Of a stretch of 64,000 bases of DNA, positions 4,912 to 54,395 are shown piece by piece. Numbering within the stretch: position 1 is the first letter of the stretch; each line of letters starts with the position of its first letter. The position numbers were made by a program, and so were the translations under genes. The DNA comes from Escherichia phage vB_EcoM_G17. The stretch lies in the sequence record MK327931.1; one strand, given 5' to 3'. The notes below the pieces were generated by a model, which saw only the letters and a list, made by a program, of their open reading frames with translations, was not told the origin of the DNA and did not search any database.

Positions 4912-4922
4912 TGTATATTCCT

Positions 4923-6759: not shown

Positions 6760-6769
6760 TTCTATTTCC

Positions 6770-7039
6770 TTATAAAAATGTTAAATCTTCAGTACTTAAT
6801 TGTGATAATTTACCATCATATTCTATTTCAACATATACATCTTGGTCATAAACAGCAACTACACGTTTAATAACTCCAACCTTCACGACATTCTTTTTGT
6901 AGTTGAACTCAACTGAACAACCAATAAGTTTATTTGATAGAATCTCACGTATTTGATTTGCATGGTCTTTTAGGATAGAATTAATAGATTTTTTCATAAT
7001 ATATCTATCATTCAAATATTTTTTAACTACATCATGCAT
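6770..7039 (-). CDS. small hypothetical protein (KYxGKxV-like family)
   Basis: 89 aa; 'NKLIGCSVEF' fits the motif seen in several ~90-aa paralogues. Confidence 0.45.
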   Translation of the reverse strand: MHDVVKKYLNDRYIMKKSINSILKDHANQIREILSNKLIGCSVEFNYKKNVVKVGVIKRVVAVYDQDVYVEIEYDGKLSQLSTEDLTFL

Positions 7040-7044
7040 AATTA

Positions 7045-7803
7045 TTACCTTTTGAAACGATTGAATGAGTACTCATCTTTTTCTTTACGTAAGTATCTCA
7101 TCCCACCACTTTGTGGAGTAGCGAGAGTTAAGTCACCCGTCAAGAACTGACTATCAATCCAAATGCGATTACCGTAAATGAGTGGGTCTGTAACTGCTGT
7201 ATGTCCACTAAAGACACAATGCACTCCATCTAACTTAGGTGCATAATATGTATTATTAGTTCTACAATAATCGAATGTTTTTCTATCCCACAAGCACTTA
7301 TCAATTATATCAGCACTAAGTGATTTTGTCCCATTAACAAATCGTTCCCATGTTGTATATTCCAACGGAACTCCAGCATGAACTAACCCAATCTTCAATC
7401 CTCGGTGATTGATTTGGATAATCATAGGGAGATCCTTTAAGTACTGACGAAAGAATTGAATGCCTGTTCCTCCAACTTCATCAAGGAATTTATCACCACC
7501 ATTACTTATCCAACAATGATACCAATCTCGAAGTGTTTCCGAATCAACGCACATCATCTCATGATTACCCGCAATCATGTAACGATTTTCTCCGAACAAA
7601 AATTCAAAAAGGAGCTTTGAATTTTGTTCTCCACGGTCGATAATATCACCTACACTGAAAACATAATCATTGTGTGTAATACCAAATTCTTTCACTGTAG
7701 CATCCCATAGTTTACCATTACCATGCAAATCACCTACAATGTATAAATCTTTATCATCAGGTACAGTTACTTCTAAGAAGTGTTTCATTATTACTCCAAC
7801 CAT
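7045..7803 (-). CDS. PPP-family Ser/Thr phosphatase-like metallophosphoesterase
   Basis: Motifs 'GDLHGN', 'GDIIDRGEQ', 'GNHEMM' (GDxHG / GDxxDRG / GNHE). Confidence 0.75.
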   Translation of the reverse strand: MVGVIMKHFLEVTVPDDKDLYIVGDLHGNGKLWDATVKEFGITHNDYVFSVGDIIDRGEQNSKLLFEFLFGENRYMIAGNHEMMCVDSETLRDWYHCWISNGGDKFLDEVGGTGIQFFRQYLKDLPMIIQINHRGLKIGLVHAGVPLEYTTWERFVNGTKSLSADIIDKCLWDRKTFDYCRTNNTYYAPKLDGVHCVFSGHTAVTDPLIYGNRIWIDSQFLTGDLTLATPQSGGMRYLRKEKDEYSFNRFKR

Positions 7804-8042
7804 ATAATATTAGTGTGTTTAGTAACTTGTGTTCCAGCAAAAGAACCATCTTTAAGATAAGTATTAATTTTAAAACGCCATTCACCACCACTAATATACA
7901 TATCAGTAATAATATACTTTCCATACCCTCTGGAGTTTATTAATCGTACTTCTTGACCAATATATTTTGGCTTCAGATCATTTATAAAATCATCAGCCAA
8001 AGACATAAGATATCGCAAATGTGATAAGTCAGTGTTGAACAT
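7791..8042 (-). CDS. small hypothetical protein (KYxGKxV-like family)
   Basis: 83 aa; 'KPKYIGQEVRL'. Confidence 0.45.
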   Translation of the reverse strand: MFNTDLSHLRYLMSLADDFINDLKPKYIGQEVRLINSRGYGKYIITDMYISGGEWRFKINTYLKDGSFAGTQVTKHTNIIWLE

Positions 8043-8257
8043 TATTTCTTTCTCTTATATTTGTTAATAATATCTTGGGTAAGTGAAATAAAAATATATA
8101 CTAATGTTACAGGCCAAATAATAGCCATCAGTGCTGCTGTTTGGAGATTCATGATAATCATGATTTCATCTTTAAAACAACCCCAATTAAGTACTAGAAA
8201 GTTGGTTATAAATGTAACAAATGCTACAAAACCATATATTGCAAAAAATGTTATCAT
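8042..8257 (-). CDS. small membrane protein
   Basis: 71 aa; two hydrophobic helices. Confidence 0.45.
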   Translation of the reverse strand: MITFFAIYGFVAFVTFITNFLVLNWGCFKDEIMIIMNLQTAALMAIIWPVTLVYIFISLTQDIINKYKRKK

Positions 8258-8259
8258 AA

Positions 8260-8589
8260 TTATTCCTCATCATCCACTAAAACAAGATAATCCAAACTTA
8301 ACTCGGTATCTATGTAACAATCACAATTCAAGTACTCAATTTCAGCACCTATAGTTCTCCCATTCTTAAATATCTCAATGATTTTCATTCTAGTATTGGG
8401 ATTAATGTGTTCAATGTCGTATTCGTATTCAGGGTCAATATACTCACTTGTCATACGTTTGATGTATTGTTCCGAATATCGTACAGTTTTACCTATAAGA
8501 TCATTACTCAACGTCTGATAAAAATCATCTTGAATTTTGAATAATGACCTATAAAAAATATTATGTTGAATTAGTGGTTTCATTGACAT
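8260..8589 (-). CDS. small hypothetical protein (KYxGKxV-like family)
   Basis: 109 aa; 'NDLIGKTVRY'. Confidence 0.45.
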   Translation of the reverse strand: MSMKPLIQHNIFYRSLFKIQDDFYQTLSNDLIGKTVRYSEQYIKRMTSEYIDPEYEYDIEHINPNTRMKIIEIFKNGRTIGAEIEYLNCDCYIDTELSLDYLVLVDDEE

Positions 8590-9230
8590 TAATCACAACT
8601 TCCAGACGATGAACTTGAATCAGAACTAGAGCTATCATAGGAACAAGAATCAGAGGAAGAACTGCTGTGACGGCTATAATCACTGTAATCATCATTGTTG
8701 TAGATTGGTGATGTTACGATTGCTGCTGCGGTCGCTGCCGTTGCAATTTGTGCAGTATGGTCATGAACACCTAGTTGTGGTTCATCCTTAGATTTACCTT
8801 TGTTCTTACCTTTAGTGTAACGAGCTTTCTTTGCAGTTTTAGTATTTTTCTGTACTTTAGGAGCTTTTGGTTTCACATCTTCAACGACTGGAACTACATT
8901 CACTACAACTTTAGGATCAGTTTCTTCAAGTGTATTATACACTTTAACTTGCATTTGAACTTCAACTTCTTTAACTTCTTCTTTAACTTCTTCTTTAACT
9001 TCTGGAATAACTGTTTCTGGTGCTGGAGTGATTTTATCAAGTTCTTTAGTAATAAAGAAGCTTGTATTTTTCTCACCTAGCATAACAAGAAGACCAATGG
9101 CAATCACTGGACTTAGTACTGTACCAAGTACTACATAACCTAGAACACTTCGGTTATAGTTATATGCAAGCATACCAGAAATAATAATACCGATTACATA
9201 TGCACTGCTAAGAATAATTGGGGTTAACAT
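8589..9230 (-). CDS. membrane-anchored protein with EVKEEVK repeats and Ser/Asp-rich tail
   Basis: 213 aa; N-terminal TM segments, 'EVKEEVKEEVKEVE', basic patch, C-terminus 'SSSSSDSCSYDSSSSDSSSSSGSCD'. Confidence 0.55.
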   Translation of the reverse strand: MLTPIILSSAYVIGIIISGMLAYNYNRSVLGYVVLGTVLSPVIAIGLLVMLGEKNTSFFITKELDKITPAPETVIPEVKEEVKEEVKEVEVQMQVKVYNTLEETDPKVVVNVVPVVEDVKPKAPKVQKNTKTAKKARYTKGKNKGKSKDEPQLGVHDHTAQIATAATAAAIVTSPIYNNDDYSDYSRHSSSSSDSCSYDSSSSDSSSSSGSCD

Positions 9231-9534
9231 ATTCTACTCCTTTGTATATAAATTTACTAACTTCTTCGATGTATAAAGACAACCCTGAACGTTCATTTAG
9301 AACTAACCAAGCACCAAAACCACATCGAATCTCGGATATATGAAACTCTTCTACACTATAAATTGAATACGCGTTAAATGGACATATTTCATCAGATATA
9401 CTTACCACATAGTTATTATTAATTGAATCTAACACCTGGGTATTGTATAAATTATTAGTACTGAAAATCTGCATTAACGAGCTAGAAAGCATCTCGGTTG
9501 TCTTTTCTAATATTGTTAAAAACGAACCATTCAC
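9208..9534 (-). CDS. hypothetical protein (108 aa)
   Basis: Minus-strand ORF. Confidence 0.4.
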   Translation of the reverse strand: MNGSFLTILEKTTEMLSSSLMQIFSTNNLYNTQVLDSINNNYVVSISDEICPFNAYSIYSVEEFHISEIRCGFGAWLVLNERSGLSLYIEEVSKFIYKGVEYVNPNYS

Positions 9535-9591
9535 TTCAACTTCTCCCTATTGGTGATGTAATCAAATTATATCACCGAATTCTGATACGTC

Positions 9592-9897
9592 TCATGATAT
9601 TCGCATTTCATCTATATATAATGAACATGATTCAGAATTATCGTCTAAACTTAAACCTAAATCGACCATCAAACCGCAATGCGTTCCCCAGAATTTCTTT
9701 ATGTATAGTTTTTTGCTATTATTACCTAAATCATAAACATATTCATTTTTAAATATACTTTTTAATTCTTCACATATACATTTTATTATCTTCATTACTT
9801 GATTATGATATTCGTATGGTATTCCATCAAGTTCGTTAATTATTAATGCAAAACCATCATCATAGTACTTAAGTTTATTGAATGTTTGTATATCCAT
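9592..9897 (-). CDS. hypothetical protein (101 aa)
   Basis: Minus-strand ORF. Confidence 0.45.
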   Translation of the reverse strand: MDIQTFNKLKYYDDGFALIINELDGIPYEYHNQVMKIIKCICEELKSIFKNEYVYDLGNNSKKLYIKKFWGTHCGLMVDLGLSLDDNSESCSLYIDEMRIS

Positions 9898-10194
9898 TTA
9901 ATATATAATCTCACTAGCTTCTATTGTGTAGACACCATCATCAGTCATTAATCTAACTGCAACTTTAATATTATTAGACATTCGTGTAACTATCAATCCA
10001 ATAATTACACCATTCTTTAAAGTACCGTTATGGTATCTTACTTGTACTTTAGTTTTGTTATCAATTAGGTATCTTCGAATTTGATGAATTTCAGTTCTAA
10101 ACAGTTCTAAATAAACTTCACTATATTCCTTATCTGAACCGTCTGAACACCAGTACAATAAATTTACTTGTTCAAATAATTTTTTTATATTCAT
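9898..10194 (-). CDS. small hypothetical protein (98 aa)
   Basis: Minus-strand ORF abutting its neighbour. Confidence 0.45.
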   Translation of the reverse strand: MNIKKLFEQVNLLYWCSDGSDKEYSEVYLELFRTEIHQIRRYLIDNKTKVQVRYHNGTLKNGVIIGLIVTRMSNNIKVAVRLMTDDGVYTIEASEIIY

Positions 10195-10550
10195 AAAAAT
10201 CTCACAGATTTAATATTACTGGTTACATGATTTACCCAAGTGTTATCGAACTTGTAAACAATTGTATTAAGTGATTTATGAAAATTAACCTCGCACACTA
10301 ATGCCTTGGAACCATTGATTGTACAGACCGTGGATGGTAAGTTGTTTGCTAATATCTCTTTTTCATCTAAACATAGTGAACTAATACAATCATAATAGAG
10401 AGGTTCAAGAACTTTTTCAGTACTGAGAAATTCAAAAGAAAGATCATCTATTAGTTTTATGTAATCGAATAAATTATGATAATATTCATTCATTGCAGAT
10501 CCTTTTAAATTTAGCATTATTAGAATATGTATATGAATGACCGAAATCAT
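10191..10550 (-). CDS. hypothetical protein (119 aa)
   Basis: Minus-strand ORF; 4-nt overlap downstream. Confidence 0.4.
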   Translation of the reverse strand: MISVIHIHILIMLNLKGSAMNEYYHNLFDYIKLIDDLSFEFLSTEKVLEPLYYDCISSLCLDEKEILANNLPSTVCTINGSKALVCEVNFHKSLNTIVYKFDNTWVNHVTSNIKSVRFL

Positions 10551-10740
10551 TTACACCATGTACATTTAGTACACCGTCACTGAAATAAATTCGATCAATA
10601 GTGAGTTCACGTTTATAATCCCAATCATCATACCAGCACAGAACACGAATACCTTTGTACTTTGTAGTTAAATCATTTTCTAATATAGTCAAGTAATCAA
10701 TATGACTTTTGAATATCTCTAAGTCCTGCTCAAACATCAT
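10486..10740 (-). CDS. small hypothetical protein (KYxGKxV-like family)
   Basis: 84 aa; 'TKYKGIRVLCW'. Confidence 0.4.
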   Translation of the reverse strand: MMFEQDLEIFKSHIDYLTILENDLTTKYKGIRVLCWYDDWDYKRELTIDRIYFSDGVLNVHGVNDFGHSYTYSNNAKFKRICNE

Positions 10741-10997
10741 TGTTCCTCGTATAATTCTATATCATCAACACCAACTTGGCGAATTGCAGTACTTCTGTTG
10801 AATGTATTTTTTTCAAACAAACATACTGTTAAACGTATTTCACACTTCAATGCACTATAATAAATCATATCAATAACACCATATGTTTCATACATTTCTA
10901 CGTATACATTTCGACCTAAATACTTTTCTTCTAAATCAGTAATTAGACTATTGATAAGATTACCTATCTGTGTTATATCTGTGTGAAATTTATCCAT
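10737..10997 (-). CDS. small hypothetical protein (KYxGKxV-like family)
   Basis: 86 aa; 'EKYLGRNVYV'. Confidence 0.45.
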   Translation of the reverse strand: MDKFHTDITQIGNLINSLITDLEEKYLGRNVYVEMYETYGVIDMIYYSALKCEIRLTVCLFEKNTFNRSTAIRQVGVDDIELYEEQ

Positions 10998-11185
10998 TAT
11001 AATAAACCTCTCACATAAAACATTGATGAAAATAGATAATCATCAGTACTGGAATTTAGTAGTTTATCAAAACTATAATTTTTATGCTTATTTTCATACA
11101 AAGACAATCTATAGTATCGTTCTATATTTTCTAAGTAGTCTTTTTGTAATAACATCTGTGTTGTTACATTCACTATAATGTACCT

Positions 11186-11220
11186 TAAAAGAAAAAGGGA
11201 CCAATATATGATCCCTTTTG
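11186..11220 (-). terminator. rho-independent terminator downstream of polynucleotide kinase gene
   Basis: Stem AAGGGA / TCCCTT (11195-11200 / 11212-11217); T-run follows on minus strand (plus 11191-11196 A-run). Confidence 0.5.
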
Positions 11221-11222
11221 TA

Positions 11223-12155
11223 TTAGAAATTTCCTTCAGCCACTTGGAAAACTTTCAACCCAAGTAGCTTACGCCACATGAATACAACTTGATCGCGGTC
11301 ATCATATACCTTTTTAACATCGTAATGATCAACCACATTTTTCATGTACAGGTCGAATTTTACAACATCATCAGGACGTTTATCATCGATATCTCGCATA
11401 AACAATGCATCGTAAGGAACACCCCAATTCTTAAGCCACTGTTCGGTATCAGCACGACACCCTTCAGTACGCCCACTCATGACGATAATCTTGCGTTTAT
11501 GAAAAACTGCTTCAGCGATAATAGACAAAATAACTTCTTCATCAGGTGTATCCTGAAGAACAGTACTTTCATCGTAAGGATTACGACCCCATTTATGAGC
11601 AAGAGTTCCATCGATATCAACGATGATAGCAGCTTCGCGTGAATTACCATAGTAACCAATGTGTAATGCCTTACTATAATAGTACGTATCTGCCATTGTG
11701 TCAATGATATCATCTTGTACTGAACGCTCACGCTGGAGGTTATATTTCTTACAAAGTTTTACGAACTCTTTAATCTTAAAGAATTCATGAACATCTGCAC
11801 CACGGTCTTCATTAGGTACAAAATCATCATAGAAGTTCTTTTCTTTGTAATCATAACCATTATCTTTAGCCCATACTTTCCAGAGATTACGGAAATGTTG
11901 TTTAAGGTTTGTATCGGATATGATGATGTTCCAACCATTCTCTGCTGCTGAATTTGCTGCACTGAACTGTAAATTAGTTACGTACTGCTCATTAGCATCG
12001 TTGAATTTGTAAGCATCATGTGACCCAGCCATAGATTCACGAATATCATCACGGTTGATGTTGATAGTCTTGGATTTGGCATTTTTAATTTCTTGAACTG
12101 CCCATGTGGTTTTACCACACCCAGGTAATCCAACTGTTAGTGTAATAGTTGGCAT
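11223..12155 (-). CDS. pseT: polynucleotide 5'-kinase / 3'-phosphatase (T4 PseT-like)
   Basis: 310 aa; N-terminal P-loop 'GLPGCGKTT'; C-terminal HAD motif 'IVDIDGTLA'. Confidence 0.85.
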   Translation of the reverse strand: MPTITLTVGLPGCGKTTWAVQEIKNAKSKTININRDDIRESMAGSHDAYKFNDANEQYVTNLQFSAANSAAENGWNIIISDTNLKQHFRNLWKVWAKDNGYDYKEKNFYDDFVPNEDRGADVHEFFKIKEFVKLCKKYNLQRERSVQDDIIDTMADTYYYSKALHIGYYGNSREAAIIVDIDGTLAHKWGRNPYDESTVLQDTPDEEVILSIIAEAVFHKRKIIVMSGRTEGCRADTEQWLKNWGVPYDALFMRDIDDKRPDDVVKFDLYMKNVVDHYDVKKVYDDRDQVVFMWRKLLGLKVFQVAEGNF

Positions 12156-12167
12156 TATTACTCCTTG

Positions 12168-12482
12168 TTACTCAATGAATTCTACATCTTCGAGTTTGTG
12201 CCATCCTCTTGAAAGGTTTCTTGTTCCGTTATTGTATTCAGTGTATACAAAGCATTCACCATTTACTAAATTACCAATAGCAGTACGCGATACTTTAACA
12301 TCAAGAATTATAGTACTGAACCATTCTCTGATTGTATGATCCCAGCATTTAACTTTACATCCAATCAATGTTTTCTTAAAATCGAAAACGTAATCTTCGA
12401 CCATTGATTCGACAGATTCTATTAGTTCCTTTTCAATGTACTTTAACTTTTCGATCCTCTCAAATGCAAGTTCTTTATTCAT
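12168..12482 (-). CDS. small hypothetical protein (KYxGKxV-like family)
   Basis: 104 aa; 'KKTLIGCKVKCW'. Confidence 0.45.
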   Translation of the reverse strand: MNKELAFERIEKLKYIEKELIESVESMVEDYVFDFKKTLIGCKVKCWDHTIREWFSTIILDVKVSRTAIGNLVNGECFVYTEYNNGTRNLSRGWHKLEDVEFIE

Positions 12483-12488
12483 ATGTCC

Positions 12489-12743
12489 TCAATTATCTAG
12501 AACATCCACTATCAAACAAGCTTCAATAACGAAACAATCATCTAATTCAAAGAGTAATTGATAGTCATCAGAAAACTTCACTTTAGTAATGTAAGCACTT
12601 TCAATTCCACCACTATGATAAGAACTATATAAAATACATTTACCTGTATATTCCTTACGGATACGACTAAATTCTTCATATAAATGAGTAATAAACGTAT
12701 CCGCAGTTTTGTTGTAGTATTTTAGGTCACTTACTGTGCTCAT
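12489..12743 (-). CDS. small hypothetical protein (KYxGKxV-like family)
   Basis: 84 aa; 'KEYTGKCILY'. Confidence 0.45.
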   Translation of the reverse strand: MSTVSDLKYYNKTADTFITHLYEEFSRIRKEYTGKCILYSSYHSGGIESAYITKVKFSDDYQLLFELDDCFVIEACLIVDVLDN

Positions 12744-12957
12744 TAACTTTTCCTACTCCAAATCGTTTGGAGATTTTCACAAGTACAGATTCATCACAAC
12801 GAATACTAGCAGTATCATTGGATGAACTGTACTTTAATGGGGTCCACTGTAATTGAGATTCTTCTAGGAACTTGATACATCTGAAGTAATCTTTCAGAGA
12901 AAGAAATTTAACTACTGACATATCCTGAACAATACTATGCTGAACTTCAACTTTCAT
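12727..12957 (-). CDS. small hypothetical protein (76 aa)
   Basis: Minus-strand ORF. Confidence 0.4.
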   Translation of the reverse strand: MKVEVQHSIVQDMSVVKFLSLKDYFRCIKFLEESQLQWTPLKYSSSNDTASIRCDESVLVKISKRFGVGKVNEHSK

Positions 12958-12966
12958 ATGAACTCC

Positions 12967-13224
12967 TTATAGTGGATCAAATTTATTTTCACGTTTCGAT
13001 GTATAGCGAGTTACATCATGTATTCTCGGCTTAACACCTTTTGGTTTCCTTTTCTTCTTGTATTCAGTACTACTACATCCGAAGGTATTCTCGATTCGTT
13101 TCTTACTTATCTTCACACCTTTCATTGAGCGTTTGTGCTGTAATTCATCGATTTCTTCTTGTATTTTCCTGAACTCAGTCGGAGAAAGGGAACCGTCATT
13201 TTTATACTTAGGTTTAGCCATCAC
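12967..13224 (-). CDS. small highly basic protein (possible nucleic-acid binding)
   Basis: 85 aa, Lys/Arg-rich ('KKRKPKGVKPR'). Confidence 0.45.
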   Translation of the reverse strand: MMAKPKYKNDGSLSPTEFRKIQEEIDELQHKRSMKGVKISKKRIENTFGCSSTEYKKKRKPKGVKPRIHDVTRYTSKRENKFDPL

Positions 13225-13251
13225 TTCTCCTTGTGCTTAGGCTAGATAGTA

Positions 13252-14394
13252 CTAAAAATCCTTTAGTACAATTTTCATGTATTTTATAAGAGTCTCTTTG
13301 TAATCAACTTTCTTATTGTTATACATTGCAAAGGCCAAGCCCTGACGATTCAGTTCATTAGTTAAACACTCCTGAACCTTCATTGCGAATTCCTTTCGCT
13401 CCAAGTGCTTGTGTTCCTTGACGAAGCTTTCTACTTCATCTTGTAATGCATTATAGCACGAAAATACCAATTGTTCCATTCTTAATATCTTTTGCATAGC
13501 ATATTCATCAGTACTGAACAATTGTTTTAAATCATCACTTGAACCATTTAATACTGCTTCATATAAATGAGAATCAATAATAATACTATCTTTTGTAAGA
13601 TGTAATGAACTGTACCAGTCAGTCTTTATTTTACACATTGTCCCATTATTTAGGATGCACACAAAACCCTCAATATCAAGCATTTTATGAACTTCCTCCA
13701 CGCTTTCACGGAAGGTATTTCGTACCGGAAAAGTGTGATGAATATCTTTTCCAGTCATATTAGTACTGTACTGTGCAAGACATGGAAACTTATCACGTAG
13801 TGCTTTACCACATAGCAACTCACCACTCACACGATGACGAACGTTCAGTACAAACAGTTGTTCTACCTGATATGGTAATACAATTCGGTACTCTGGGCTT
13901 GTATACTCCATATTAACTGTGTAACCTAAACGTTCCGCTTCGTCGATGTACTGATACAAATTCTGGTTCTCGTTAATAAGTCGAGTACTGTTAATCGCAT
14001 GGTCAGAATACAATGCAGTATGTGATTTACAACGAATCTCACCATCATTATCACGGTAAGTACTGATAATCGAACCATCCAACTTAGGCATCACTACCGC
14101 AATGTCATCGCATGTGGTGTTAGCAGGGAACATTGTAGCAGGATTCTCGTAAGCATTGAAGAACTTTTTCATTGTACGTGCTGCACAACGTATCATTTCA
14201 CCTTCTTCATCAATTTCCCACATAGAGCCACGGGTTTCCAACGCATTTGGTTGCATGAAATCAGTGTATGATGCTAGACGATAACTGAATACACGATACG
14301 TGCCACCAGCAGGACTTTTATGATCCACATAAAAGAATGCATCGTTTGTATTACATAAGTGCATTAAATCTTCATATATTTGCAAAAGGGTCAT
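13252..14394 (-). CDS. rnlA: RNA ligase 1 (T4 RnlA-like)
   Basis: 380 aa; N-terminus 'FFYVDHKSPAGGTYRVFSYRLASYTDF...ALETRGSMWE' parallels T4 RnlA as recalled; 'KLDGS' adenylation motif; 'KIKTDWYSSLHLTK'. Confidence 0.85.
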   Translation of the reverse strand: MTLLQIYEDLMHLCNTNDAFFYVDHKSPAGGTYRVFSYRLASYTDFMQPNALETRGSMWEIDEEGEMIRCAARTMKKFFNAYENPATMFPANTTCDDIAVVMPKLDGSIISTYRDNDGEIRCKSHTALYSDHAINSTRLINENQNLYQYIDEAERLGYTVNMEYTSPEYRIVLPYQVEQLFVLNVRHRVSGELLCGKALRDKFPCLAQYSTNMTGKDIHHTFPVRNTFRESVEEVHKMLDIEGFVCILNNGTMCKIKTDWYSSLHLTKDSIIIDSHLYEAVLNGSSDDLKQLFSTDEYAMQKILRMEQLVFSCYNALQDEVESFVKEHKHLERKEFAMKVQECLTNELNRQGLAFAMYNNKKVDYKETLIKYMKIVLKDF

Positions 14395-14699
14395 TTTATT
14401 ACCTCTATATCTACATCAGTTCCATAATATGATATTAATCCATCATCAGATTCACACTGAATAGACAACTCAGATTCATAGTATGTTACTTTATTCACTG
14501 TTAGTACTTGTTCTTCAATTACTCCAGAAAAATAATTCATCTCACGTACACGAACTTTAGTTCCTTTAGGTAGTTCATCTGAGATTTTTCGAACAAGATC
14601 ATAAGCAGCCTGTTCAAGTGTGTACAGTAATTGTAATCTATCTTGAATATTCATATTATTTCCACCAACTGGTATCACGTCCATTAGACAAAGATTCAT
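14391..14699 (-). CDS. small hypothetical protein (KYxGKxV-like family)
   Basis: 102 aa; 'LPKGTKVRVREM'. Confidence 0.45.
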   Translation of the reverse strand: MNLCLMDVIPVGGNNMNIQDRLQLLYTLEQAAYDLVRKISDELPKGTKVRVREMNYFSGVIEEQVLTVNKVTYYESELSIQCESDDGLISYYGTDVDIEVIK

Positions 14700-15345
14700 T
14701 GTACTGATGCCTAAAATTAGTTTTTGGATTATTGTTCATAGTACTAATAAAATCAAATTTAACATTCTCTTGAATATATTTTTTAACACTATCTTTAAAT
14801 TTAATAGTACTGAAGTCTAAATCTAGATGTTCATACAATACCGGATGACAAAACTCATGTGTACGCAACGCTGGCATGGTATCCTTAATGTATTGCACAG
14901 TGTTAATCATTGCATTGTATTCCGGCATAGCACGCATCATCATTAGCTGAAAGTGTTCTTCCTCTGACATTGACTCATCCAAATCAATAACGACTTCATC
15001 ATTTTTAGAGTCATAAACTTTAATGGTACTCTTGGTTGGATCAAGCATAGCCCACTCTGGATACAGGCATGTTTTCCAAAAAGGATTATTGCACTGAAAC
15101 ATACTAATGAGATTTTGATCTTTATCAAAAATAGCAAATCCAAGATCCGAACTTGGTTGTACTTCACATACACAAATATCGTAAGACGAGTCTTCAGTAC
15201 TGAGTGAACCAACTACATTTGATATATGTGAATATGGAGTTTCTCTTGACTCCAACTGAAATGTACTTTCAATTCGATTGATTTGTGGATGTAATGTAAT
15301 TACACCCCTTAGTACATATAAAATTCTATCTAAATCTTTAATCAA
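14656..15345 (-). CDS. hypothetical protein; distant FQxS-family relative
   Basis: 229 aa; 'SEEEHFQLMMMR'. Confidence 0.45.
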   Translation of the reverse strand: MIKDLDRILYVLRGVITLHPQINRIESTFQLESRETPYSHISNVVGSLSTEDSSYDICVCEVQPSSDLGFAIFDKDQNLISMFQCNNPFWKTCLYPEWAMLDPTKSTIKVYDSKNDEVVIDLDESMSEEEHFQLMMMRAMPEYNAMINTVQYIKDTMPALRTHEFCHPVLYEHLDLDFSTIKFKDSVKKYIQENVKFDFISTMNNNPKTNFRHQYNESLSNGRDTSWWK

Positions 15346-15920
15346 AATTCTATCCCCGTATCAGTTAATTTCGTTCCGTCCATGTACTTAACAGTTATTT
15401 CAATGCGTCGATCAGTACTCAATTTTTGAAGATCATTGTAGTACAATTTAAATTCTTCAAAGAACTCAAGTGGTGGAATATCGTATAAAGTACTAATCTG
15501 GAAGTGCTCAGGTAATCCAAATTCCAATATATCAATCTTAGGCATAAGTCCATCGGCTGCTGCACCTTCTGGAGTACTGCTATCTGCTACATAAAACATA
15601 GAATTACCATGACGCTGGATAACGAATATGCAATCATCTTCACTTACATAAATCATATTTCCAAGGTATGGATCGTTATCACACCAATTATCATGGACGA
15701 GTTGTTCAACTTGAAGTAAATCTTTTATAATTCCCTGACCACTATCGTCAACTAGAATATGTAAACCAGAACAATCTTTGCTCAACCAGCGGTATCTTGC
15801 ATCACATCCTGATTCCATAAATGGATATTTTGAAAAATCCATATCAGTACCATTATAAAACCAATCGTACCACTCATTACGCATACTAATCAGCTTAGTA
15901 CTTAATTCTAATACATTCAT
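15342..15920 (-). CDS. hypothetical protein (192 aa)
   Basis: Minus-strand ORF with ATGA-type overlap to neighbour. Confidence 0.5.
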   Translation of the reverse strand: MNVLELSTKLISMRNEWYDWFYNGTDMDFSKYPFMESGCDARYRWLSKDCSGLHILVDDSGQGIIKDLLQVEQLVHDNWCDNDPYLGNMIYVSEDDCIFVIQRHGNSMFYVADSSTPEGAAADGLMPKIDILEFGLPEHFQISTLYDIPPLEFFEEFKLYYNDLQKLSTDRRIEITVKYMDGTKLTDTGIEF

Positions 15921-15927
15921 TTTAGTT

Positions 15928-16230
15928 TTATCCTCTTAATTTAATAGTACTGGCTGGATATTCTACAAAAGTATTATCTGGTAATCCTATACAGTAATAA
16001 GGTAAATACCCCATCTTTATATTAATACCAATTAAAATTCCTGTTTTATATGAAGTATTAATTCCATAGTAATCGTCTATATCAACAGCAAGTCCATATA
16101 ATGATATGTTACAATCCTTGATGTATCGGTCAAACATTTTATACATTGATGGATATAAAGTTCCATTGGATTGTCTCACCAAATCAGCCAACATTTTGAT
16201 AGTACTGTTAATTAAATCTATACTGAACAT
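15928..16230 (-). CDS. hypothetical protein (100 aa)
   Basis: Minus-strand ORF. Confidence 0.45.
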   Translation of the reverse strand: MFSIDLINSTIKMLADLVRQSNGTLYPSMYKMFDRYIKDCNISLYGLAVDIDDYYGINTSYKTGILIGINIKMGYLPYYCIGLPDNTFVEYPASTIKLRG

Positions 16231-16274
16231 CTTTGTACCTGCGAAAAAAGACCAGCAAACGCTGGCCTAAGAAT

Positions 16275-16556
16275 TTAAATTATTTCATAAAGACAATATA
16301 CACCATCAACGCCAGCATCAGGAAAATCAACATAGAAATTCACACTAACAGTGTCGTAATCTATATCAGTGATTCGTCCGGTTTTACCTACACTTTTTAC
16401 AAATATATCAGACCCAAGATACACAAACTCGAACTCGTCAGCATACTCTTTTATGATATCTGCGAACCTACAACCACACCTAGGTTCTGTGTTAATAATT
16501 TCAAGATATAATGTAATATATTGTTCGTATGTCCATGTGTGTAGATAAAAATCCAT
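16275..16556 (-). CDS. hypothetical protein (93 aa)
   Basis: Minus-strand ORF. Confidence 0.45.
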   Translation of the reverse strand: MDFYLHTWTYEQYITLYLEIINTEPRCGCRFADIIKEYADEFEFVYLGSDIFVKSVGKTGRITDIDYDTVSVNFYVDFPDAGVDGVYCLYEII

Positions 16557-16566
16557 AGAAGTTTCC

Positions 16567-17304
16567 TTAGAAATATATCATACCCATCAATTCAGAATCG
16601 GCGGGGCGAGTATAACCTTGCTTCTTAACTTTAAAATAGAATGATTCATGCTCTTCTAAATTATAACGTTTTTTCAAGCAACGAGTGTATGTCTGACAAT
16701 TTGGGTGAACCCATTCATAAATGTGAATGCCATTTTCGTCATAACCATTTATACTACAACGATTTCCTTCATGCTTCATGAAGTTTTTACTTTTTTCAGT
16801 AAATTCTTTCACTGTAGTTGTATATGGGGATTTGTATTCAAAAGGAACTTCAGTCATACGAAAATAATAGTATTCTTCGTCTTCATCATATCCCAAGAGC
16901 ACTGTGTTAGTTTCACGTACATTGTAATGATTCTTACTTTTTAATTCATTTTCGTATATATCTTTCAGTACTTCTGCAAAAACTTCCTCGCTTGATGCAT
17001 TAGGATTAGATACACCTGATACTCGGCGTTCAATAATAAAATCAGTGAATTTACGGTCTTCGGCAATATCTTCGTTCATATAAAGACTAACAAACTTATC
17101 CTTATATGTCTTTACACTATATTGCTTACTTTGCACTTCACTATAAACATCTGCTAACATATTCTCCTGACCACACTGCACACCACTTACAGAATAAGCA
17201 CATGCATGTTCAGCCATTACTGATGTTAACATTTGGAAATTTGCCATGTTTAATTCATTCGCCATCTCTGTAGCGAAACGGATACGGTCAAGCATTTCAC
17301 ACAC
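16567..17304 (-). CDS. hypothetical protein (245 aa)
   Basis: Minus-strand ORF; no motif recognised. Confidence 0.5.
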   Translation of the reverse strand: MCEMLDRIRFATEMANELNMANFQMLTSVMAEHACAYSVSGVQCGQENMLADVYSEVQSKQYSVKTYKDKFVSLYMNEDIAEDRKFTDFIIERRVSGVSNPNASSEEVFAEVLKDIYENELKSKNHYNVRETNTVLLGYDEDEEYYYFRMTEVPFEYKSPYTTTVKEFTEKSKNFMKHEGNRCSINGYDENGIHIYEWVHPNCQTYTRCLKKRYNLEEHESFYFKVKKQGYTRPADSELMGMIYF

Positions 17305-17353
17305 TCCTTGTGTTAATTATTGTTCCTTACCCATTATTATATCATGAATTAAA

Positions 17354-17650
17354 CTATTGTCCCTGTTTATAGCAATAAAGATTCTCTAATTTAAAATCTA
17401 CTAGATCACATTCAGAACGTACTCGATTCTTGTTCCAGAATAAAATACGAATCCTTTCATAATCACGATAAACACTAATAATGCTTCTGTGCTTGGATTT
17501 GTAGTAATCCTGTACTATCCCCAGATACACAGTCCTCAATAAAGACTTAGTTGGATAGGGCATATTCTGTGCTGACGTGATATCGTAAATCATCTTCATT
17601 GTTTCAGCAACAAGTACTTCATTTGTTCTCATTGTAATCCTTACATACAC
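17354..17650 (-). CDS. hypothetical protein
   Basis: Minus-strand ORF; true start may be the internal 'MRTNEV' Met at 17632. Confidence 0.4.
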   Translation of the reverse strand: MYVRITMRTNEVLVAETMKMIYDITSAQNMPYPTKSLLRTVYLGIVQDYYKSKHRSIISVYRDYERIRILFWNKNRVRSECDLVDFKLENLYCYKQGQ

Positions 17651-17795
17651 TATGTAAAGTAAATCCTAATCCAACACCGACAAATGGAAATAGTAAATTG
17701 ATATACCAAGTATTAATTGATGAAAGTAAACAAATCCCACATACTGTCAGTACTGCCAATGAAAAAAGACTCCAGATAAAAAATACTGCTCTCAT
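17619..17795 (-). CDS. small membrane protein (58 aa), below the 60-aa track cutoff
   Basis: My translation: 'MRAVFFIWSLFSLAVLTVCGICLLSSINTWYINLLFPFVGVGLGFTLHSVCKDYNENK'; two hydrophobic helices; ATGA overlap with upstream gene stop. Confidence 0.35.
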   Translation of the reverse strand: MRAVFFIWSLFSLAVLTVCGICLLSSINTWYINLLFPFVGVGLGFTLHSVCKDYNENK

Positions 17796-18082
17796 AAAAA
17801 TGTTACCTCATCAAATGAAAAGTTTAAGTACGTTGTTGAATCTTGGTCTAAAGTATGAATAGTAATATGACCATTGAAATAAAAAGAAACATCAACTATT
17901 TGAAGTTTTGGGTATTTTCTAGTACTGAAATACCTTCCTACTACTAAGTCAGAAAACATATTTCTGTATTCTTGTGTTACGTTTTTGTATAGGTTATGTA
18001 GAGCACTTTCTTGTGAATCGAAAGTAATGGAATAATCTTTCACCAATATAGCATATGTTTTCTGCATTAAAATGATATTCAT
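17792..18082 (-). CDS. small protein, IQFTYK-type family
   Basis: 96 aa; N-terminus 'MQKTYAILVKDY'. Confidence 0.45.
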   Translation of the reverse strand: MNIILMQKTYAILVKDYSITFDSQESALHNLYKNVTQEYRNMFSDLVVGRYFSTRKYPKLQIVDVSFYFNGHITIHTLDQDSTTYLNFSFDEVTFL

Positions 18083-18342
18083 AAATCTCCTAATATCTCA
18101 AAAATTATTGATATTGGGTATACTGGGTTATCAGATGAAGTAACACATACTATTAGTACGTTTTTTCCAGGTGCTACATCCTTTACCGTGAAATTAATAT
18201 TATTAAGAATCAGTGATTTACCAATATAATGCTCTTTCAATAATTCAACAAAATAATCCAGTACTGGATTATCTGCACTATATGATAACTCAGTACTTGA
18301 TATCATTTTATATGTATGAACTATTAGTTCAGCTTTAGTCAT
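18079..18342 (-). CDS. small hypothetical protein (KYxGKxV-like family)
   Basis: Track ORF runs to 18465; likely start is internal Met 'MTKAEL' at 18342, avoiding overlap with the zinc-ribbon gene. 'EHYIGKSLIL'. Confidence 0.4.
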   Translation of the reverse strand: MTKAELIVHTYKMISSTELSYSADNPVLDYFVELLKEHYIGKSLILNNINFTVKDVAPGKNVLIVCVTSSDNPVYPISIIFEILGDL

Positions 18343-18535
18343 GAACACGCTCACAATTAAGGCAATAAATGCACTCAATGTCAGGTCGCCATGATTTATC
18401 AAAATCTTTGTGTTGTTCTTCGGTGTATTCCGCATCATCATTAATAGGGAAGAAATCACCAGCACCAGTCGCCCAGTCTGAATCTAAACGGAAACGAGCT
18501 AATTGAGTACTGTTACAATATGGACATTTATTCAA
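18335..18535 (-). CDS. small zinc-ribbon protein
   Basis: 66 aa; 'CPYCNS ... CIYCLNC' (CxxC x2). Confidence 0.5.
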   Translation of the reverse strand: MNKCPYCNSTQLARFRLDSDWATGAGDFFPINDDAEYTEEQHKDFDKSWRPDIECIYCLNCERVHD

Positions 18536-18812
18536 AATTTATTCCTTCTAACTGATATACGTTTAATGAAAATGACCCACTATTATTATCGCATCTGAAA
18601 CACAGTGTTAAAGAACCATTAAAACTAACTACATCCGTACAGATACATTTTTCACCATTGGATATGATAGATTTTCCTATATATAAATCTCTTACTATAG
18701 TACGGTAATGTTGCCATAAAAAATAATACACACTTTCATAGTACTCATCTTTTACATATGATAAGTATAAGAATTTATAAAATACTTGTATTTCCTTTAA
18801 GTTGTTTTTCAT
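18528..18812 (-). CDS. small protein, IQFTYK-type family
   Basis: 94 aa; 'KEIQVFYKFLYLSY'. Confidence 0.5.
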   Translation of the reverse strand: MKNNLKEIQVFYKFLYLSYVKDEYYESVYYFLWQHYRTIVRDLYIGKSIISNGEKCICTDVVSFNGSLTLCFRCDNNSGSFSLNVYQLEGINFE

Positions 18813-19086
18813 TCTTCAATTCCAGTAAATTTACACCAATCCAATCAACATCACTATCAGTACTTAATTCCAATCGTAGCTTACCGCTATGACTAACAAT
18901 ATCGCGGAATTTGTATATTTTATTATCACGAACTATACACAAATCATGGTAATATTCATGTAATTCATCCAAAAACTTTATCCATACCGAACGATAGATT
19001 TCACTGTAGAGATATTCTCCAGCATCAACCGTAGCGTATTGGATATACAAAAATTTGTATGTGAATTGTATATCATTTAATAACAT
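18775..19086 (-). CDS. small protein, IQFTYK-type family
   Basis: 103 aa; 'LNDIQFTYKFLYIQY'. Confidence 0.5.
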   Translation of the reverse strand: MLLNDIQFTYKFLYIQYATVDAGEYLYSEIYRSVWIKFLDELHEYYHDLCIVRDNKIYKFRDIVSHSGKLRLELSTDSDVDWIGVNLLELKNEKQLKGNTSIL

Positions 19087-19096
19087 ATGTAACCTC

Positions 19097-19408
19097 TTAT
19101 AAATTCACCAACTTCACAACTTTAATCTCGATAAATCCCCTATCGGTTATTTCCTGAAATTGAACATGGATTATACCATTATATGATTGCACACCATAGA
19201 AATCGAATTTATCATTTCCATCGATAAAAGTACTGTAATTCTTTTTTATATATTCACCTACTGAATCTAAGTACTCAATATATAAATCAATAAATGGTTG
19301 TTCTTTGGATCGGTTATGTGAACCTATGTTGTTACTAACAAGGTATACATCATACAAATCATATAGGATCTTATAAGTGAATTGTATATCATTTAAATTT
19401 AATCCCAA
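19097..19408 (-). CDS. small protein, IQFTYK-type family
   Basis: 103 aa; 'LNDIQFTYKILYDLY'. Confidence 0.5.
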   Translation of the reverse strand: MGLNLNDIQFTYKILYDLYDVYLVSNNIGSHNRSKEQPFIDLYIEYLDSVGEYIKKNYSTFIDGNDKFDFYGVQSYNGIIHVQFQEITDRGFIEIKVVKLVNL

Positions 19409-19665
19409 GGGAATATCTCCAACGGAATACTGGTAAATCCAAAATCAGTGTAGTACTGAACCTCAACTTTACCATCACGTCTAATGATTATATCAGAAAA
19501 TTCTGCATGGTCATCACCAATAATAACAGTACTGAATTTTTTTTTAATCTTACCACGAATCGTATGAATCATTTCAGTGCATGTGTCTTCTAGACTAGGG
19601 CTATCATTGTCGTGTGCTAAATCTCGAATAATCTTGTATGTTAGTAGGAAATCTTTATAATTCAT
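19399..19665 (-). CDS. small protein, IQFTYK-type family
   Basis: 88 aa; 'KDFLLTYKIIRDL'. Confidence 0.5.
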   Translation of the reverse strand: MNYKDFLLTYKIIRDLAHDNDSPSLEDTCTEMIHTIRGKIKKKFSTVIIGDDHAEFSDIIIRRDGKVEVQYYTDFGFTSIPLEIFPWD

Positions 19666-54207: not shown

Positions 54208-54395
54208 ACTATCTCCGTTCGCAACGAATTTATATAATAATGAACAAATTGTTCTTGTGAACGTGTTCCAAGAAAAATAAACATATCAAACTCTGTTGTT
54301 TTTAAATTCAATGCATCTTTTGTAAAATTCCTGTTGAATTCCCTGTACTTTTGGGTCTTCCATTCTTGATTAATTGTCTTGTATATCGATTTCAA
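54177..54395 (-). CDS. LGTNYQE-family small protein
   Basis: 72 aa; 'IFLGTRSQEQ'. Confidence 0.5.
   Translation of the reverse strand: MKSIYKTINQEWKTQKYREFNRNFTKDALNLKTTEFDMFIFLGTRSQEQFVHYYINSLRTEIVCKTQGIIKR

What the first reader, a model, noticed from the sequence alone, without database searches (positions are those of the whole stretch)
6770..18342. Dispersed family of ~85-105 aa proteins with a central 'KYxGKxV' motif
At least ten small genes (6770, 7791, 8260, 10486, 10737, 12168, 12489, 14391, 18079, and 42294 inside the FQxS array) share an N-terminal helix followed by '(K/E)(Y/L)xG(K/R)x(V/I)' and a beta-rich C-terminus. Unlike the tandem arrays, these copies are scattered among functional genes.
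Basis: seen in the sequence. Interest (0 to 1): 0.35.

Follow-up and report, generated by a model that had tools for sequence, protein, structure and literature searches.

The report
Fast-evolving small helix-plus-barrel phage protein family
A jumbo E. coli phage carries about a dozen very diverged copies of one small, previously unrecognised gene family of unknown function, scattered among its DNA/RNA-repair genes; this is real, but it is the ordinary kind of lineage-specific gene expansion seen in giant phages.

Summary
The window is an Asteriusvirus jumbo coliphage: bases 6000-19000 are 100% identical to phage Sharanji. All ten listed ORFs exist on the minus strand.

They are a real but very diverged paralog family.
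- **Pairwise similarity** is almost nil.
- **Firm members:** in leave-own-group-out profile-profile tests, eight ORFs score 31-80 (HHalign probability 87-99%). These are 6770, 7791, 8260, 10486, 10737, 12168, 12489 and 42294. Seventy-two control small ORFs from the same window score at most 18.3.
- **Marginal members:** 14391 (23.4) and 18079 (20.7) still beat every control.
- **Motif:** as written it fits only 3 of 10. The real signature is an amphipathic helix, then K-(Y/L)-x-G-(K/R)-x-(V/I), then alternating aliphatic strands.
16275 is a firm member. 53583 and the tandem cluster at 17792-19937 are probably distant relatives.

AlphaFold models of two members (pLDDT 71-73) show N-terminal helices followed by a four- to five-strand, SH3/Tudor-like sheet. 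No Pfam, NCBIfam or PDB sequence relative was found. The family was detected only in Asteriusvirus and RaK2-like phages.

The genes are under purifying selection, yet they diverge far faster than their neighbours and are swapped as sharp-edged cassettes between phages that are otherwise at least 98% identical. Orthologs were absent from the phAPEC6 virion proteome.

My best guess, which is inferred, is that they are non-enzymatic binding modules for host takeover or counter-defence.

The parts
6770..7039 (-). Family member, 89 aa, basic (pI 8.7). Lies just downstream of the Ser/Thr phosphatase gene.
   Evidence: Leave-own-group-out HHalign against the family profile: score 36.2, probability 93%, over 74 columns. 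Leave-out HMM E = 2.7e-3, top-ranked among non-training sequences. dN/dS 0.30. phrog_38615.
7791..8042 (-). Family member, 83 aa. Its 3' end overlaps the phosphatase start.
   Evidence: HHalign 44.9, 96%. Leave-out HMM E = 2.9e-4. dN/dS 0.03-0.38. phrog_37322.
8260..8589 (-). Family member, 109 aa, acidic, with an insertion in the barrel.
   Evidence: HHalign 41.9, 95%, over 82 columns. Leave-out HMM E = 3.9e-4. phrog_29135.
10486..10740 (-). Family member, 84 aa. It is the closest paralog of 7791 and adjacent to 10737.
   Evidence: HHalign 35.3, 93%. Leave-out HMM E = 4e-5. Grouped with 7791 through their JNE01 orthologs.
10737..10997 (-). Family member, 86 aa. It matches the motif as written (KYLGRNV).
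   Evidence: HHalign 80.2, 99%. Leave-out HMM E = 3.4e-5. Motif match. The ortholog is intact but unannotated in phAPEC6.
12168..12482 (-). Family member, 104 aa, just downstream of pseT. Used for structure model 1.
   Evidence: Leave-out HMM E = 1.3e-7. HHalign 38.2, 94%. AF2 pLDDT 71: helix 3-39 followed by five strands. Lies in a cassette that phAPEC6 and Ecwhy_1 replace with a 34%-identical allele.
12489..12743 (-). Family member, 84 aa. It matches the motif as written (EYTGKCI). Absent from the phAPEC6 / PBECO4 / Ecwhy_1-type genomes.
   Evidence: HHalign 30.7, 87%. Leave-out HMM is weak at E = 0.13. Recruited in iteration 5 of the decoy-controlled search. Cassette polymorphism.
14391..14654 (-). 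Marginal family member, 87 aa from the corrected start. Overlaps the RNA ligase start.
   Evidence: HHalign 23.4, 43%, above all 72 controls. Its own HMM E-values are 0.12-2. Its syntenic RaK2 ortholog (L001 27077-27349) is recruited at E = 4.9e-4.
16275..16556 (-).
   Evidence: HHalign 40.1, 95%. Recruited at E = 4.1e-4 with no decoys.
18079..18342 (-). Marginal member, 87 aa. It bridges to the tandem cluster. Used for structure model 2.
   Evidence: HHalign against the family: 20.7, 32%, above all controls. Against 18775: 87%. Against 18528: 76%. AF2 pLDDT 72.6: two helices followed by four strands. Lies in a replaced cassette relative to Ecwhy_1.
42294..42602 (-). Family member, 102 aa, isolated inside the unrelated array of 150-190 aa paralogs. 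It matches the motif as written (KYAGRKV).
   Evidence: Leave-out HMM E = 2.3e-6. HHalign 34.5, 92%. Array proteins score E > 1 with the family HMM.
17792..19937 (-). Tandem cluster of six more small paralogs: 17792-18082, 18528-18812, 18775-19086, 19097-19408, 19399-19665 and 19662-19937. Probably a distant subfamily. The range also spans 18079-18342 (listed separately above) and an unrelated 66-aa zinc-ribbon-like ORF at 18335-18535.
   Evidence: Mutual phmmer E-values of 1e-7 to 1e-5. HHalign against the scattered family: 18528 25.0, 18775 22.5, 19662 19.4, 17792 18.0. 19097 and 19399 fall in the control range. Profile A1 against A4: 36%, score 24.4, with the equivalent helix-G-strand region aligned.
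53583..53975 (-). Possible additional member, 130 aa (KYKGSEF).
   Evidence: HMM E = 0.004 in the decoy database. HHalign 22.2, 34%.

Best explanation
**Shown.** These ORFs are real protein-coding genes. They form one lineage-specific, highly diverged paralog family, with at least 9 firm copies in this window and 7-8 in other Asteriusviruses. Five copies were found in RaK2. None was detected in more distant Rak2-like genera. Each protein is about 85-105 aa. It has a 25-40-residue amphipathic N-terminal helix (or helical hairpin) that ends in K-(Y/L)-x-G-(K/R)-x-(V/I). The glycine marks the turn into a small four- to five-strand, SH3/Tudor-like beta sheet or barrel. Only the glycine and core hydrophobic positions are conserved.

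**Inferred.** The proteins are non-enzymatic, non-virion accessory proteins. They are co-transcribed with the phage's nucleic-acid repair and counter-defence genes. The conserved helix-plus-barrel core would act as a scaffold, and the variable, mostly acidic surface of each paralog would bind a different host (or competitor) macromolecule. That would make the family a diversifying toolkit for host takeover or counter-defence. The family grows by local duplication and is reshuffled between phages by cassette replacement.

**My confidence in each layer.**
- Family is real: about 0.9.
- Fold class: about 0.7.
- Non-enzymatic binder or accessory role: about 0.5.
- Host-takeover or counter-defence role specifically: about 0.3.
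For: **Homology**
- Decoy-controlled iterative HMM search: 37 real sequences, 0 decoys.
- Leave-one-group-out HMM tests.
- HHalign against 72 and 620 controls.

**Real genes**
- dN/dS is 0.03-0.4 for unsaturated ortholog pairs.
- Most copies have Shine-Dalgarno-like purine runs upstream.

**Fold**
- AF2 models have pLDDT 71.2 and 72.6, with helix or helices followed by 4-5 strands.
- The best PDB fold matches for the 12168 model are Tudor, PWWP, Plus3 and SAWADEE barrels, with TM 0.41-0.49 over about 65 columns.

**No catalytic signature**
- The conserved columns are G (84%), Y/L (97%), V/I (89%) and aliphatic core positions only.
- No Pfam or NCBIfam hit.

**Mostly acidic**
- 15 of 19 members and candidates have pI below 6.1.

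**Rapid diversification**
- Syntenic copies are 30-45% identical between phages whose pseT and rnlA are 83-89% identical.
- Window 12155-12740 (12168 plus 12489) is replaced in phAPEC6 by a single 103-aa member that is 34% identical. The flanks are 98.0% and 99.5% identical.
- Other break points against Ecwhy_1 include one that coincides with 18079.

**Not structural**
- The phAPEC6 orthologs lie within gp358c-gp386c.
- Of the parts of the phAPEC6 virion proteome table returned, the tail runs gp341c, gp347, gp549, gp551, so no protein between gp348 and gp548 is listed (PMC7247149, Table 1).

**Neighbourhood**
- Nearby genes are DNA ligase, Ser/Thr phosphatase, PNK and Rnl1. Rnl1 and PNK form the anti-PrrC tRNA repair pair noted for phAPEC6 (PMC7247149).
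- NAMPT/NMNAT and methyltransferases lie in the syntenic regions of relatives.
Against: - No experiment or homolog of known function ties any member to a target. The functional part rests on context and evolutionary pattern alone.
- The AF2 models have only moderate confidence, come from shallow alignments, and share family alignments, so they are not independent proof of a common fold. The second model shows four strands rather than five.
- Foldseek matches to solved structures are not significant (best E = 0.02).
- Three listed or candidate members are basic (6770, 7791, 19662), so 'acidic binder' is not universal.
- Fast divergence and cassette turnover also fit weakly constrained, dispensable genes.
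- No promoter evidence for early expression was obtained. The sigma-70 scan found no more sites than chance.
Confidence: 0.5

Rival explanations
1. Sm/Hfq-like RNA-binding chaperones. They would work with the neighbouring RNA ligase and polynucleotide kinase by holding cleaved tRNA or other RNAs. The architecture is an N-terminal helix followed by a bent five-strand sheet.
For: - The architecture resembles the Sm fold: a helix followed by five strands.
- The sequence 'l-x-G-k-x-V' after the helix resembles the start of the Sm1 motif (my own knowledge; a lead only).
- One Sm-like variant (2e12) appears among the PDB fold hits at rank 16.
- Several copies flank rnlA and pseT.
Against: - No Pfam LSM or Hfq hit, even at E <= 5, for 17 members.
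- HHalign of the family profile against E. coli Hfq and an archaeal Sm protein gives probability below 1%.
- Most members are acidic.
- No conserved polar RNA-contact residues.
- The top fold hits are Tudor and PWWP domains, not Sm.
Confidence: 0.1
2. Dispensable evolutionary debris. On this view the genes are duplicated ORFans that persist in a hyperplastic region under weak constraint, with no specific molecular targets.
For: - Very fast divergence and presence/absence or replacement polymorphism among near-identical phages.
- Truncated or frameshifted variants of 10737 and 6770 exist in public assemblies (P0015, P0023, P0026).
- The family is restricted to two genera.
Against: - dN/dS is well below 1 wherever dS is unsaturated.
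- The fold-defining core is conserved over divergence down to 15-30% identity.
- Copies sit at syntenic positions from Asteriusvirus to RaK2.
- The truncated variants may be assembly errors.
Confidence: 0.15
3. Not one family. The resemblance would be convergent: generic small helix-plus-sheet proteins in an AT-rich genome, with a low-information G motif.
For: - Pairwise identities are 12-25% and pairwise E-values are mostly insignificant.
- PHROGs places each ORF in a separate family.
- The strict motif fits only 3 of 10.
- Decoys occasionally reach E = 3e-4.
Against: - Controls drawn from the same genome, and so the same composition and size class, never exceed a score of 18.3, while eight members score 31-80.
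- No decoy was recruited in iterative searches.
- Alignments place the same helix-G-strand register in all members.
Confidence: 0.05
4. Virion, assembly or chaperone components, for example decoration or fibre-attachment helpers. Rnl1 is annotated as 'tail fiber attachment catalyst'.
For: Some relatives annotate the neighbouring Rnl1 as 'RNA ligase and tail fiber protein attachment catalyst'.
Against: - None of the orthologs (within gp358c-gp386c) appears in the phAPEC6 virion proteome. The returned tail of its table lists nothing between gp347 and gp549.
- The region contains no structural genes.
Confidence: 0.05

Closest known systems
Small accessory ORFs of the hyperplastic (plastic) regions of T4-like and other large myoviruses: early, non-essential host-takeover or anti-defence genes lying between conserved core genes.
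   Same: - Small size, same-strand dense packing with overlapping stop and start codons.
- Location between conserved enzymes (phosphatase, pseT, rnlA).
- Extreme divergence and presence/absence or replacement between close relatives.
- Not in the virion.
   Different: - Here at least 9 of the ORFs are homologous to one another and share one fold, rather than being unrelated ORFans.
- No member has a demonstrated target or phenotype.
- Early expression is not shown.
Tudor, PWWP and other 'Royal family' SH3-like beta-barrels, including Tudor-like interaction domains.
   Same: These are the best structural matches of the 12168 model: Pdp1 PWWP (2l89), UHRF1 tandem Tudor and PAPI extended Tudor. 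TM is 0.41-0.49 and rmsd 2.5-3.9 A over about 65 columns. Both are five-strand barrels with a short helical turn before the last strand.
   Different: - The matches are not statistically significant (E >= 0.02).
- No Pfam Tudor or PWWP hit.
- No conserved aromatic cage.
- A long N-terminal helix is an integral conserved part here.
Sm / LSm / Hfq fold
   Same: The secondary-structure order is the same: an N-terminal helix followed by a bent antiparallel sheet.
   Different: - No sequence or profile similarity.
- The helix is about three times longer.
- The proteins are mostly acidic.
- No Sm2-like motif.
PHROG singletons-by-clade: phrog_38615, 37322, 29135, 33398, 29519, 31355, 28139, 33961 and 11429, all 'unknown function'.
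   Same: Each listed ORF (except 12489) is a full-length member of one of these PHROGs (E = 1e-33 to 1e-75).
   Different: PHROGs treats them as nine unrelated families. The profile analysis here unites them into one superfamily.
Uncharacterised small SH3-like-barrel phage proteins in BFVD, for example DUF1653-type proteins and Burkholderia phage AH2 I6NTL2.
   Same: Similar predicted fold and size (E = 4e-3 to 5e-2).
   Different: - No detectable sequence relationship.
- The function of those proteins is also unknown, so the comparison adds nothing mechanistic.

Membership tests
The proposed helix + K(Y/L)xG(K/R)x(V/I) + beta-barrel paralog family itself | Significant profile match to the rest of the family when the ORF's own ortholog group is left out | tested here: met
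   Eight listed ORFs score 30.7-80.2 (probability 87-99%) against a control maximum of 18.3. 14391 (23.4) and 18079 (20.7) are marginal but above every control. 9898, 15928, 19097 and 19399 are not distinguishable from controls.
The proposed helix + K(Y/L)xG(K/R)x(V/I) + beta-barrel paralog family itself | The literal motif (K/E)(Y/L)xG(K/R)x(V/I) | tested here: not met
   Only 3 of 10 listed ORFs match the regular expression. Column statistics over 37 members: G 84%, Y/L 97%, K/R at +1 62%, V/I at +3 89%. The motif is therefore a consensus, not a rule.
The proposed helix + K(Y/L)xG(K/R)x(V/I) + beta-barrel paralog family itself | N-terminal helix followed by a beta-rich C-terminal domain | tested here: met
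   AF2 model of 12168: helix 3-39 followed by five strands, pLDDT 71. AF2 model of 18079: helices 3-16 and 26-39 followed by four strands, pLDDT 73. Only two members were modelled. For the others, the architecture is inferred from the alignment.
Tudor / PWWP 'Royal family' domains | Sequence-profile membership (Pfam Tudor, PWWP, Agenet, chromo) | tested here: not met
   No such Pfam hit at E <= 1-5 for the 10 ORFs or the 17 members of alignment A1.
Tudor / PWWP 'Royal family' domains | Five-strand SH3-like barrel superposable on solved members | tested here: inconclusive
   The top Foldseek PDB hits are Tudor and PWWP domains, with TM 0.41-0.49, but E = 0.02-0.3 and none below 1e-3. The model has only moderate confidence.
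Tudor / PWWP 'Royal family' domains | Conserved aromatic cage for methyl-lysine or methyl-arginine | tested here: not met
   No barrel column has an aromatic residue conserved in most members. The conserved barrel columns are aliphatic V/I/L.
Sm / LSm / Hfq | Sm1/Sm2 sequence motifs, or a match to an LSM or Hfq profile | tested here: not met
   No Pfam LSM or Hfq hit. HHalign of A1 against E. coli Hfq gives probability 0.2%, and against an archaeal Sm1 0.4%.
Sm / LSm / Hfq | Ring-shaped homo-oligomer that binds RNA | not testable with these tools
   No multimer prediction or experiment was available.
Hyperplastic-region accessory genes of large myoviruses (a functional class, not a homology family) | Located between conserved core genes, and variable or replaced among close relatives | tested here: met
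   Nucleotide alignments break exactly at family genes, while the flanks are 84-99.5% identical. Family copies are 30-45% identical in amino acids against 76-89% for neighbouring enzymes.
Hyperplastic-region accessory genes of large myoviruses (a functional class, not a homology family) | Early expression and a host-directed activity | not testable with these tools
   The sigma-70 consensus scan found no more sites than chance. No transcriptome was found in the literature searches.

The most novel reading that the evidence does not exclude
The family would be a dedicated, cassette-swapping arsenal. Many paralogs would share one helix-plus-Tudor-like-barrel scaffold, and each would neutralise a different host defence or housekeeping protein. 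On this reading the sharp allelic replacements seen between 98-99%-identical phages are the footprint of an ongoing arms race. That would make it a new anti-defence or host-takeover protein superfamily specific to Rak2-like jumbo phages.
Probability: 0.2. Interest if true: 0.55.

Novelty: new member of a known kind. Interest (0 to 1): 0.3.

Why it matters
More than 80% of the genes of these 350-kb phages have no known function, and databases treat these ORFs as unrelated singletons. Uniting about a dozen of them per genome into one fold family reduces the number of unexplained genes. It also gives a consensus and alignment for annotation.

The family's copies are swapped between near-identical phages, so it is a sensible first target for host-range, anti-defence or toxicity screens in phages considered for therapy against E. 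coli and Klebsiella.

In itself, though, a lineage-specific expansion of small accessory proteins is expected in jumbo phages. The RaK2 authors already noted that about 10% of its proteins are paralogues (PMC3622015). No function is established here.

Tried and rejected
**Searches and tests that led nowhere**
- **Pairwise BLASTP and phmmer within the window.** These were too weak to define the family. A single-linkage graph at E <= 0.05 chained 119 ORFs together and was discarded as meaningless.
- **Pfam, NCBIfam and PDB-sequence searches.** Nothing beyond noise. A myosin-VI / designed-peptide 'HEE' similarity is generic.
- **Profile search of 5.8 billion clustered proteins.** It returned only Asteriusvirus orthologs.
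- **Full HMMER profile search of 1.84 billion representatives.** It returned the same orthologs plus one leucine-rich-repeat protein, P0032. I reject P0032 as a repeat artefact.
- **Sm/Hfq hypothesis.** Tested by HHalign and Pfam and not supported.
- **Sigma-70 promoter scan.** It found fewer sites than shuffles, so it is uninformative about timing.
- **DNA repeat search for recombination signals flanking the cassettes.** No cassette-specific repeat was found. The search instead exposed the CAGTACTG palindrome.
- **Mapping BFVD hits to specific paralogs.** I tried to map the hits of model 2 through UniProt accessions. Only H6X4R2 could be mapped, to RaK2 ORF455, by accession arithmetic. The others stayed ambiguous.

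**Candidate members rejected**
- 9898-10194 and 15928-16230 fall in the control range.
- 20859-21152 has a motif hit but a different architecture.

Full report
**Where this is.** Window 6000-19000 is 100% identical to Escherichia phage Sharanji (OR545507.1). It is 95-99% identical to 121Q, PBECO4, phAPEC6 and other Asteriusvirus jumbo myoviruses. Essentially all genes lie on the minus strand at about 33% G+C. The finding's span contains three annotated enzymes: a Ser/Thr phosphatase (7045-7803), polynucleotide kinase/phosphatase PseT (11223-12155) and RNA ligase 1 (13252-14394). About 30 small ORFs of unknown function sit among them.

**Observation check.** All ten ORFs exist as described.
- The 14391 ORF probably starts at 14654, giving 87 aa. 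This matches the 264-nt annotations in phAPEC6, JNE01 and A4.
- The 18079 ORF starts at 18342, giving 87 aa.
- Pairwise similarity is nearly absent. Only 7791-10737 and 10737-42294 reach E of about 1e-3.
- PHROGs puts each ORF in its own family.
- The motif as literally written matches only 10737, 12489 and 42294.

**Profile-level evidence.** I pooled minus-strand ORFs from the window with syntenic regions of RaK2, PHA46, CBB, JNE01, Yen9-04, A4 and Ecwhy_1. Four tests followed.
1. *Decoy-controlled iterative search.* Four seeds were searched against a database that was 80% reversed or shuffled decoys. The search recruited 37 real proteins and no decoy. These included 6770, 7791, 8260, 10486, 10737, 12168, 12489, 16275 and 42294. 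Of the next 25 sub-threshold hits, 24 were real (an earlier version is).
2. *Leave-one-ortholog-group-out HMM tests.* These gave E = 1e-7 for 12168, 2e-6 for 42294, 3e-5 for 10737 and 4e-5 for 10486. They gave 3e-4 for 7791, 4e-4 for 8260 and 3e-3 for 6770. They were weak for 12489 (0.13) and 14391 (2.0). The best decoys fell between 3e-4 and 0.1.
3. *Pairwise profile comparison.* Of 45 listed-versus-listed HHalign scores, 51% exceeded the 99th percentile of 620 control comparisons (p = 3e-15).
4. *Each group's profile against a family profile built without it*.

| ORF | HHalign score |
|---|---|
| 10737 | 80.2 |
| 7791 | 44.9 |
| 8260 | 41.9 |
| 16275 (unlisted) | 40.1 |
| 12168 | 38.2 |
| 6770 | 36.2 |
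| 10486 | 35.3 |
| 42294 | 34.5 |
| 12489 | 30.7 |
| 14391 | 23.4 |
| 18079 | 20.7 |
| 72 controls | mean 10.0, sd 2.6, maximum 18.3 |

Eight listed ORFs are therefore firm members, and two are marginal but above all controls.

**True extent.**
- 53583-53975 (score 22.2) is a probable distant relative.
- So is the tandem cluster at 17792-19937. Its members are related to each other at E = 1e-7 to 1e-5. Against the family, 18528 scores 25.0 and 18775 scores 22.5. The two family-level profiles align the equivalent helix-G-strand region at 36% probability.
- 9898 and 15928 are not members.

A strict census gives 9 copies in the window, 8 in JNE01, 8 in A4, 7 in Ecwhy_1 and 5 in RaK2. PHA46, CBB and Yen9-04 have none. 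Profile searches of 5.8 billion clustered proteins and 1.84 billion representatives returned only Asteriusvirus orthologs, plus one spurious LRR protein.

**Signature and fold.** Column statistics were taken across 37 members.
- The helix shows an i / i+3-4 / i+7 hydrophobic pattern, with acidic positions 11 and 7 residues before the glycine.
- Then come K (49%), Y/L (97%), x, G (84%), K/R (62%), x, V/I (89%).
- Aliphatic pairs typical of beta strands follow.
- No conserved polar or catalytic residue appears.

AlphaFold2 results:
- 12168, with the family alignment, gave pLDDT 71: helix 3-39 and five strands with a helical turn before the last.
- 18079, with 35 tandem-cluster sequences, gave pLDDT 73: two helices followed by four strands.

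Foldseek results:
- Against the PDB, the 12168 model matched Tudor, PWWP, Plus3 and SAWADEE barrels, with TM 0.41-0.49 and E = 0.02-0.3. None was significant.
- Against BFVD, it found a 31%-identical PBECO4 paralog or allele (E = 2e-6) and many uncharacterised small phage barrels.
- Model 2's top BFVD hits include small proteins named as coming from 121Q, UB and RaK2 at 12-18% identity.

Pfam, NCBIfam and PDB-sequence searches were empty.

**Evolution.** For unsaturated ortholog pairs, dN/dS is 0.03-0.4, so these are real, constrained genes. The syntenic copies in A4 are nevertheless only 30-45% identical, while the phosphatase, rnlA and pseT are 76%, 83% and 89% identical. The pattern is mosaic: 12168 is 92% identical to JNE01 but only 32% to the otherwise closer Ecwhy_1.

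Against phAPEC6, the flanks are 98.0% and 99.5% identical. Window 12155-12740 (12168 + 12489) is replaced there by 311 bp encoding a single 103-aa member that is 34% identical to 12168. Against Ecwhy_1, alignment breaks coincide with 12168/12489, with 18079, and with the 192-aa ORF at 15342-15920.

**Context.**
- Three convincing intrinsic terminators divide the region into co-directional units, at 19978-19954, 16268-16249 and 11219-11193 on the minus strand.
- Most family genes have SD-like purine runs, and many overlap their neighbours' stop or start codons.
- The phAPEC6 orthologs fall within gp358c-gp386c. The parts of its 62-protein virion proteome table returned show nothing between gp347 and gp549 (PMC7247149, Table 1). 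The family therefore appears to be non-structural.
- Fifteen of 19 members and candidates are acidic.

**Interpretation.**
- *Shown:* one diverged paralog family of small helix-plus-beta-barrel proteins. It is non-virion, under purifying selection, evolving fast and exchanged as cassettes.
- *Inferred:* the conserved core is a scaffold and the variable surface binds different partners. The location among repair and counter-defence genes, together with the turnover pattern, suggests host-takeover or counter-defence roles. No partner or activity is known, so I give this part about 0.3.
- *Rivals:* Sm/Hfq-like RNA chaperones are not supported. Weakly constrained dispensable ORFans are partly compatible. 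Convergence is rejected for the core eight. Virion or assembly roles are contradicted by the proteome.

**Literature.**
- The RaK2 paper notes that about 10% of its proteins are paralogues but does not describe this family (PMC3622015).
- The Sharanji paper does not mention the family.
- The term searches run in the phAPEC6 paper and the jumbo-phage comparative-genomics paper turned up no description of it either.

**Verdict.** This is a real, previously unrecognised superfamily, but of an ordinary kind for jumbo phages. Interest is about 0.3.

Noticed in passing
whole window, e.g. 3396, 6254, 10418, 13509, 18259, 19527, 37812, 46529: The palindromic octamer CAGTACTG occurs 45 times in 64 kb, against 0.7 expected from dinucleotide shuffles (maximum 4 in 100 shuffles). 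Its core AGTACT occurs 190 times against about 21 expected. The sites lie inside unrelated genes in two reading phases about equally, so this is a DNA-level signal and not a peptide motif. The excess is shared by RaK2 (25 observed, 0.34 expected), CBB (14, 0.34), PHA46 (9, 0.36) and Yen9-04 (3, 0.19). Possible meanings are a binding site for a phage DNA-binding or condensation protein, or a methylation target. A literature search for the string returned 928 papers; the ten listed were unrelated to phage, apparently primer sequences.
   Followed up: partly
window 12155-12740, 15355-15926, 18082-18313: There are sharp-edged replacement or indel cassettes relative to near-identical phages. phAPEC6 replaces 12168 + 12489 with one 103-aa allele that is 34% identical, between flanks that are 98-99.5% identical. 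Ecwhy_1 also lacks or replaces the 192-aa ORF at 15342-15920 and the 18079 gene.
   Followed up: partly
window ~27000-53300 and ~53900-62100: Two very large paralog arrays are unrelated to this family. One has about 40 linked ORFs of 104-207 aa, plus one 54-aa fragment. The other has about 33 linked ORFs of 52-96 aa. Both were clustered by phmmer at E <= 1e-3. The family HMM does not hit either array.
   Followed up: no
window 6532-6759 and 18335-18535 (minus strand): Two tiny Cys-rich proteins. The 75-aa ORF has CxxC...CxxC pairs (CPTCNG...CPHCDGKG) and is annotated as a DnaJ-like chaperone in phages A4 and Ecwhy_1. The 66-aa ORF has CxxC...CxxC pairs that look like a zinc ribbon.
   Followed up: no
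window 8589-9230 (minus strand): A 213-aa ORF with N-terminal hydrophobic segments, a (K/E)EV repeat encoded by a 12-nt tandem DNA repeat at 8966-9013, and a Ser/Asp-rich C-terminal tail.
   Followed up: no
window 19978-19954, 16268-16249, 11219-11193 (minus strand): Three strong intrinsic-terminator-like hairpins sit in the few intergenic gaps. Across the region, 12 terminator-like sites were found against 4.0 expected. They suggest at least three transcription units across the region.
   Followed up: no
L008 (phAPEC6 MK817115.1) 4714-4974, equivalent to window 10737-10997: The ortholog of family member 10737 is intact in phAPEC6, with one substitution, but is not annotated in that record. 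Public assemblies also contain truncated or frameshifted variants of 10737 and 6770 (P0015, P0023, P0026). These may be assembly errors or pseudogenes.
   Followed up: partly
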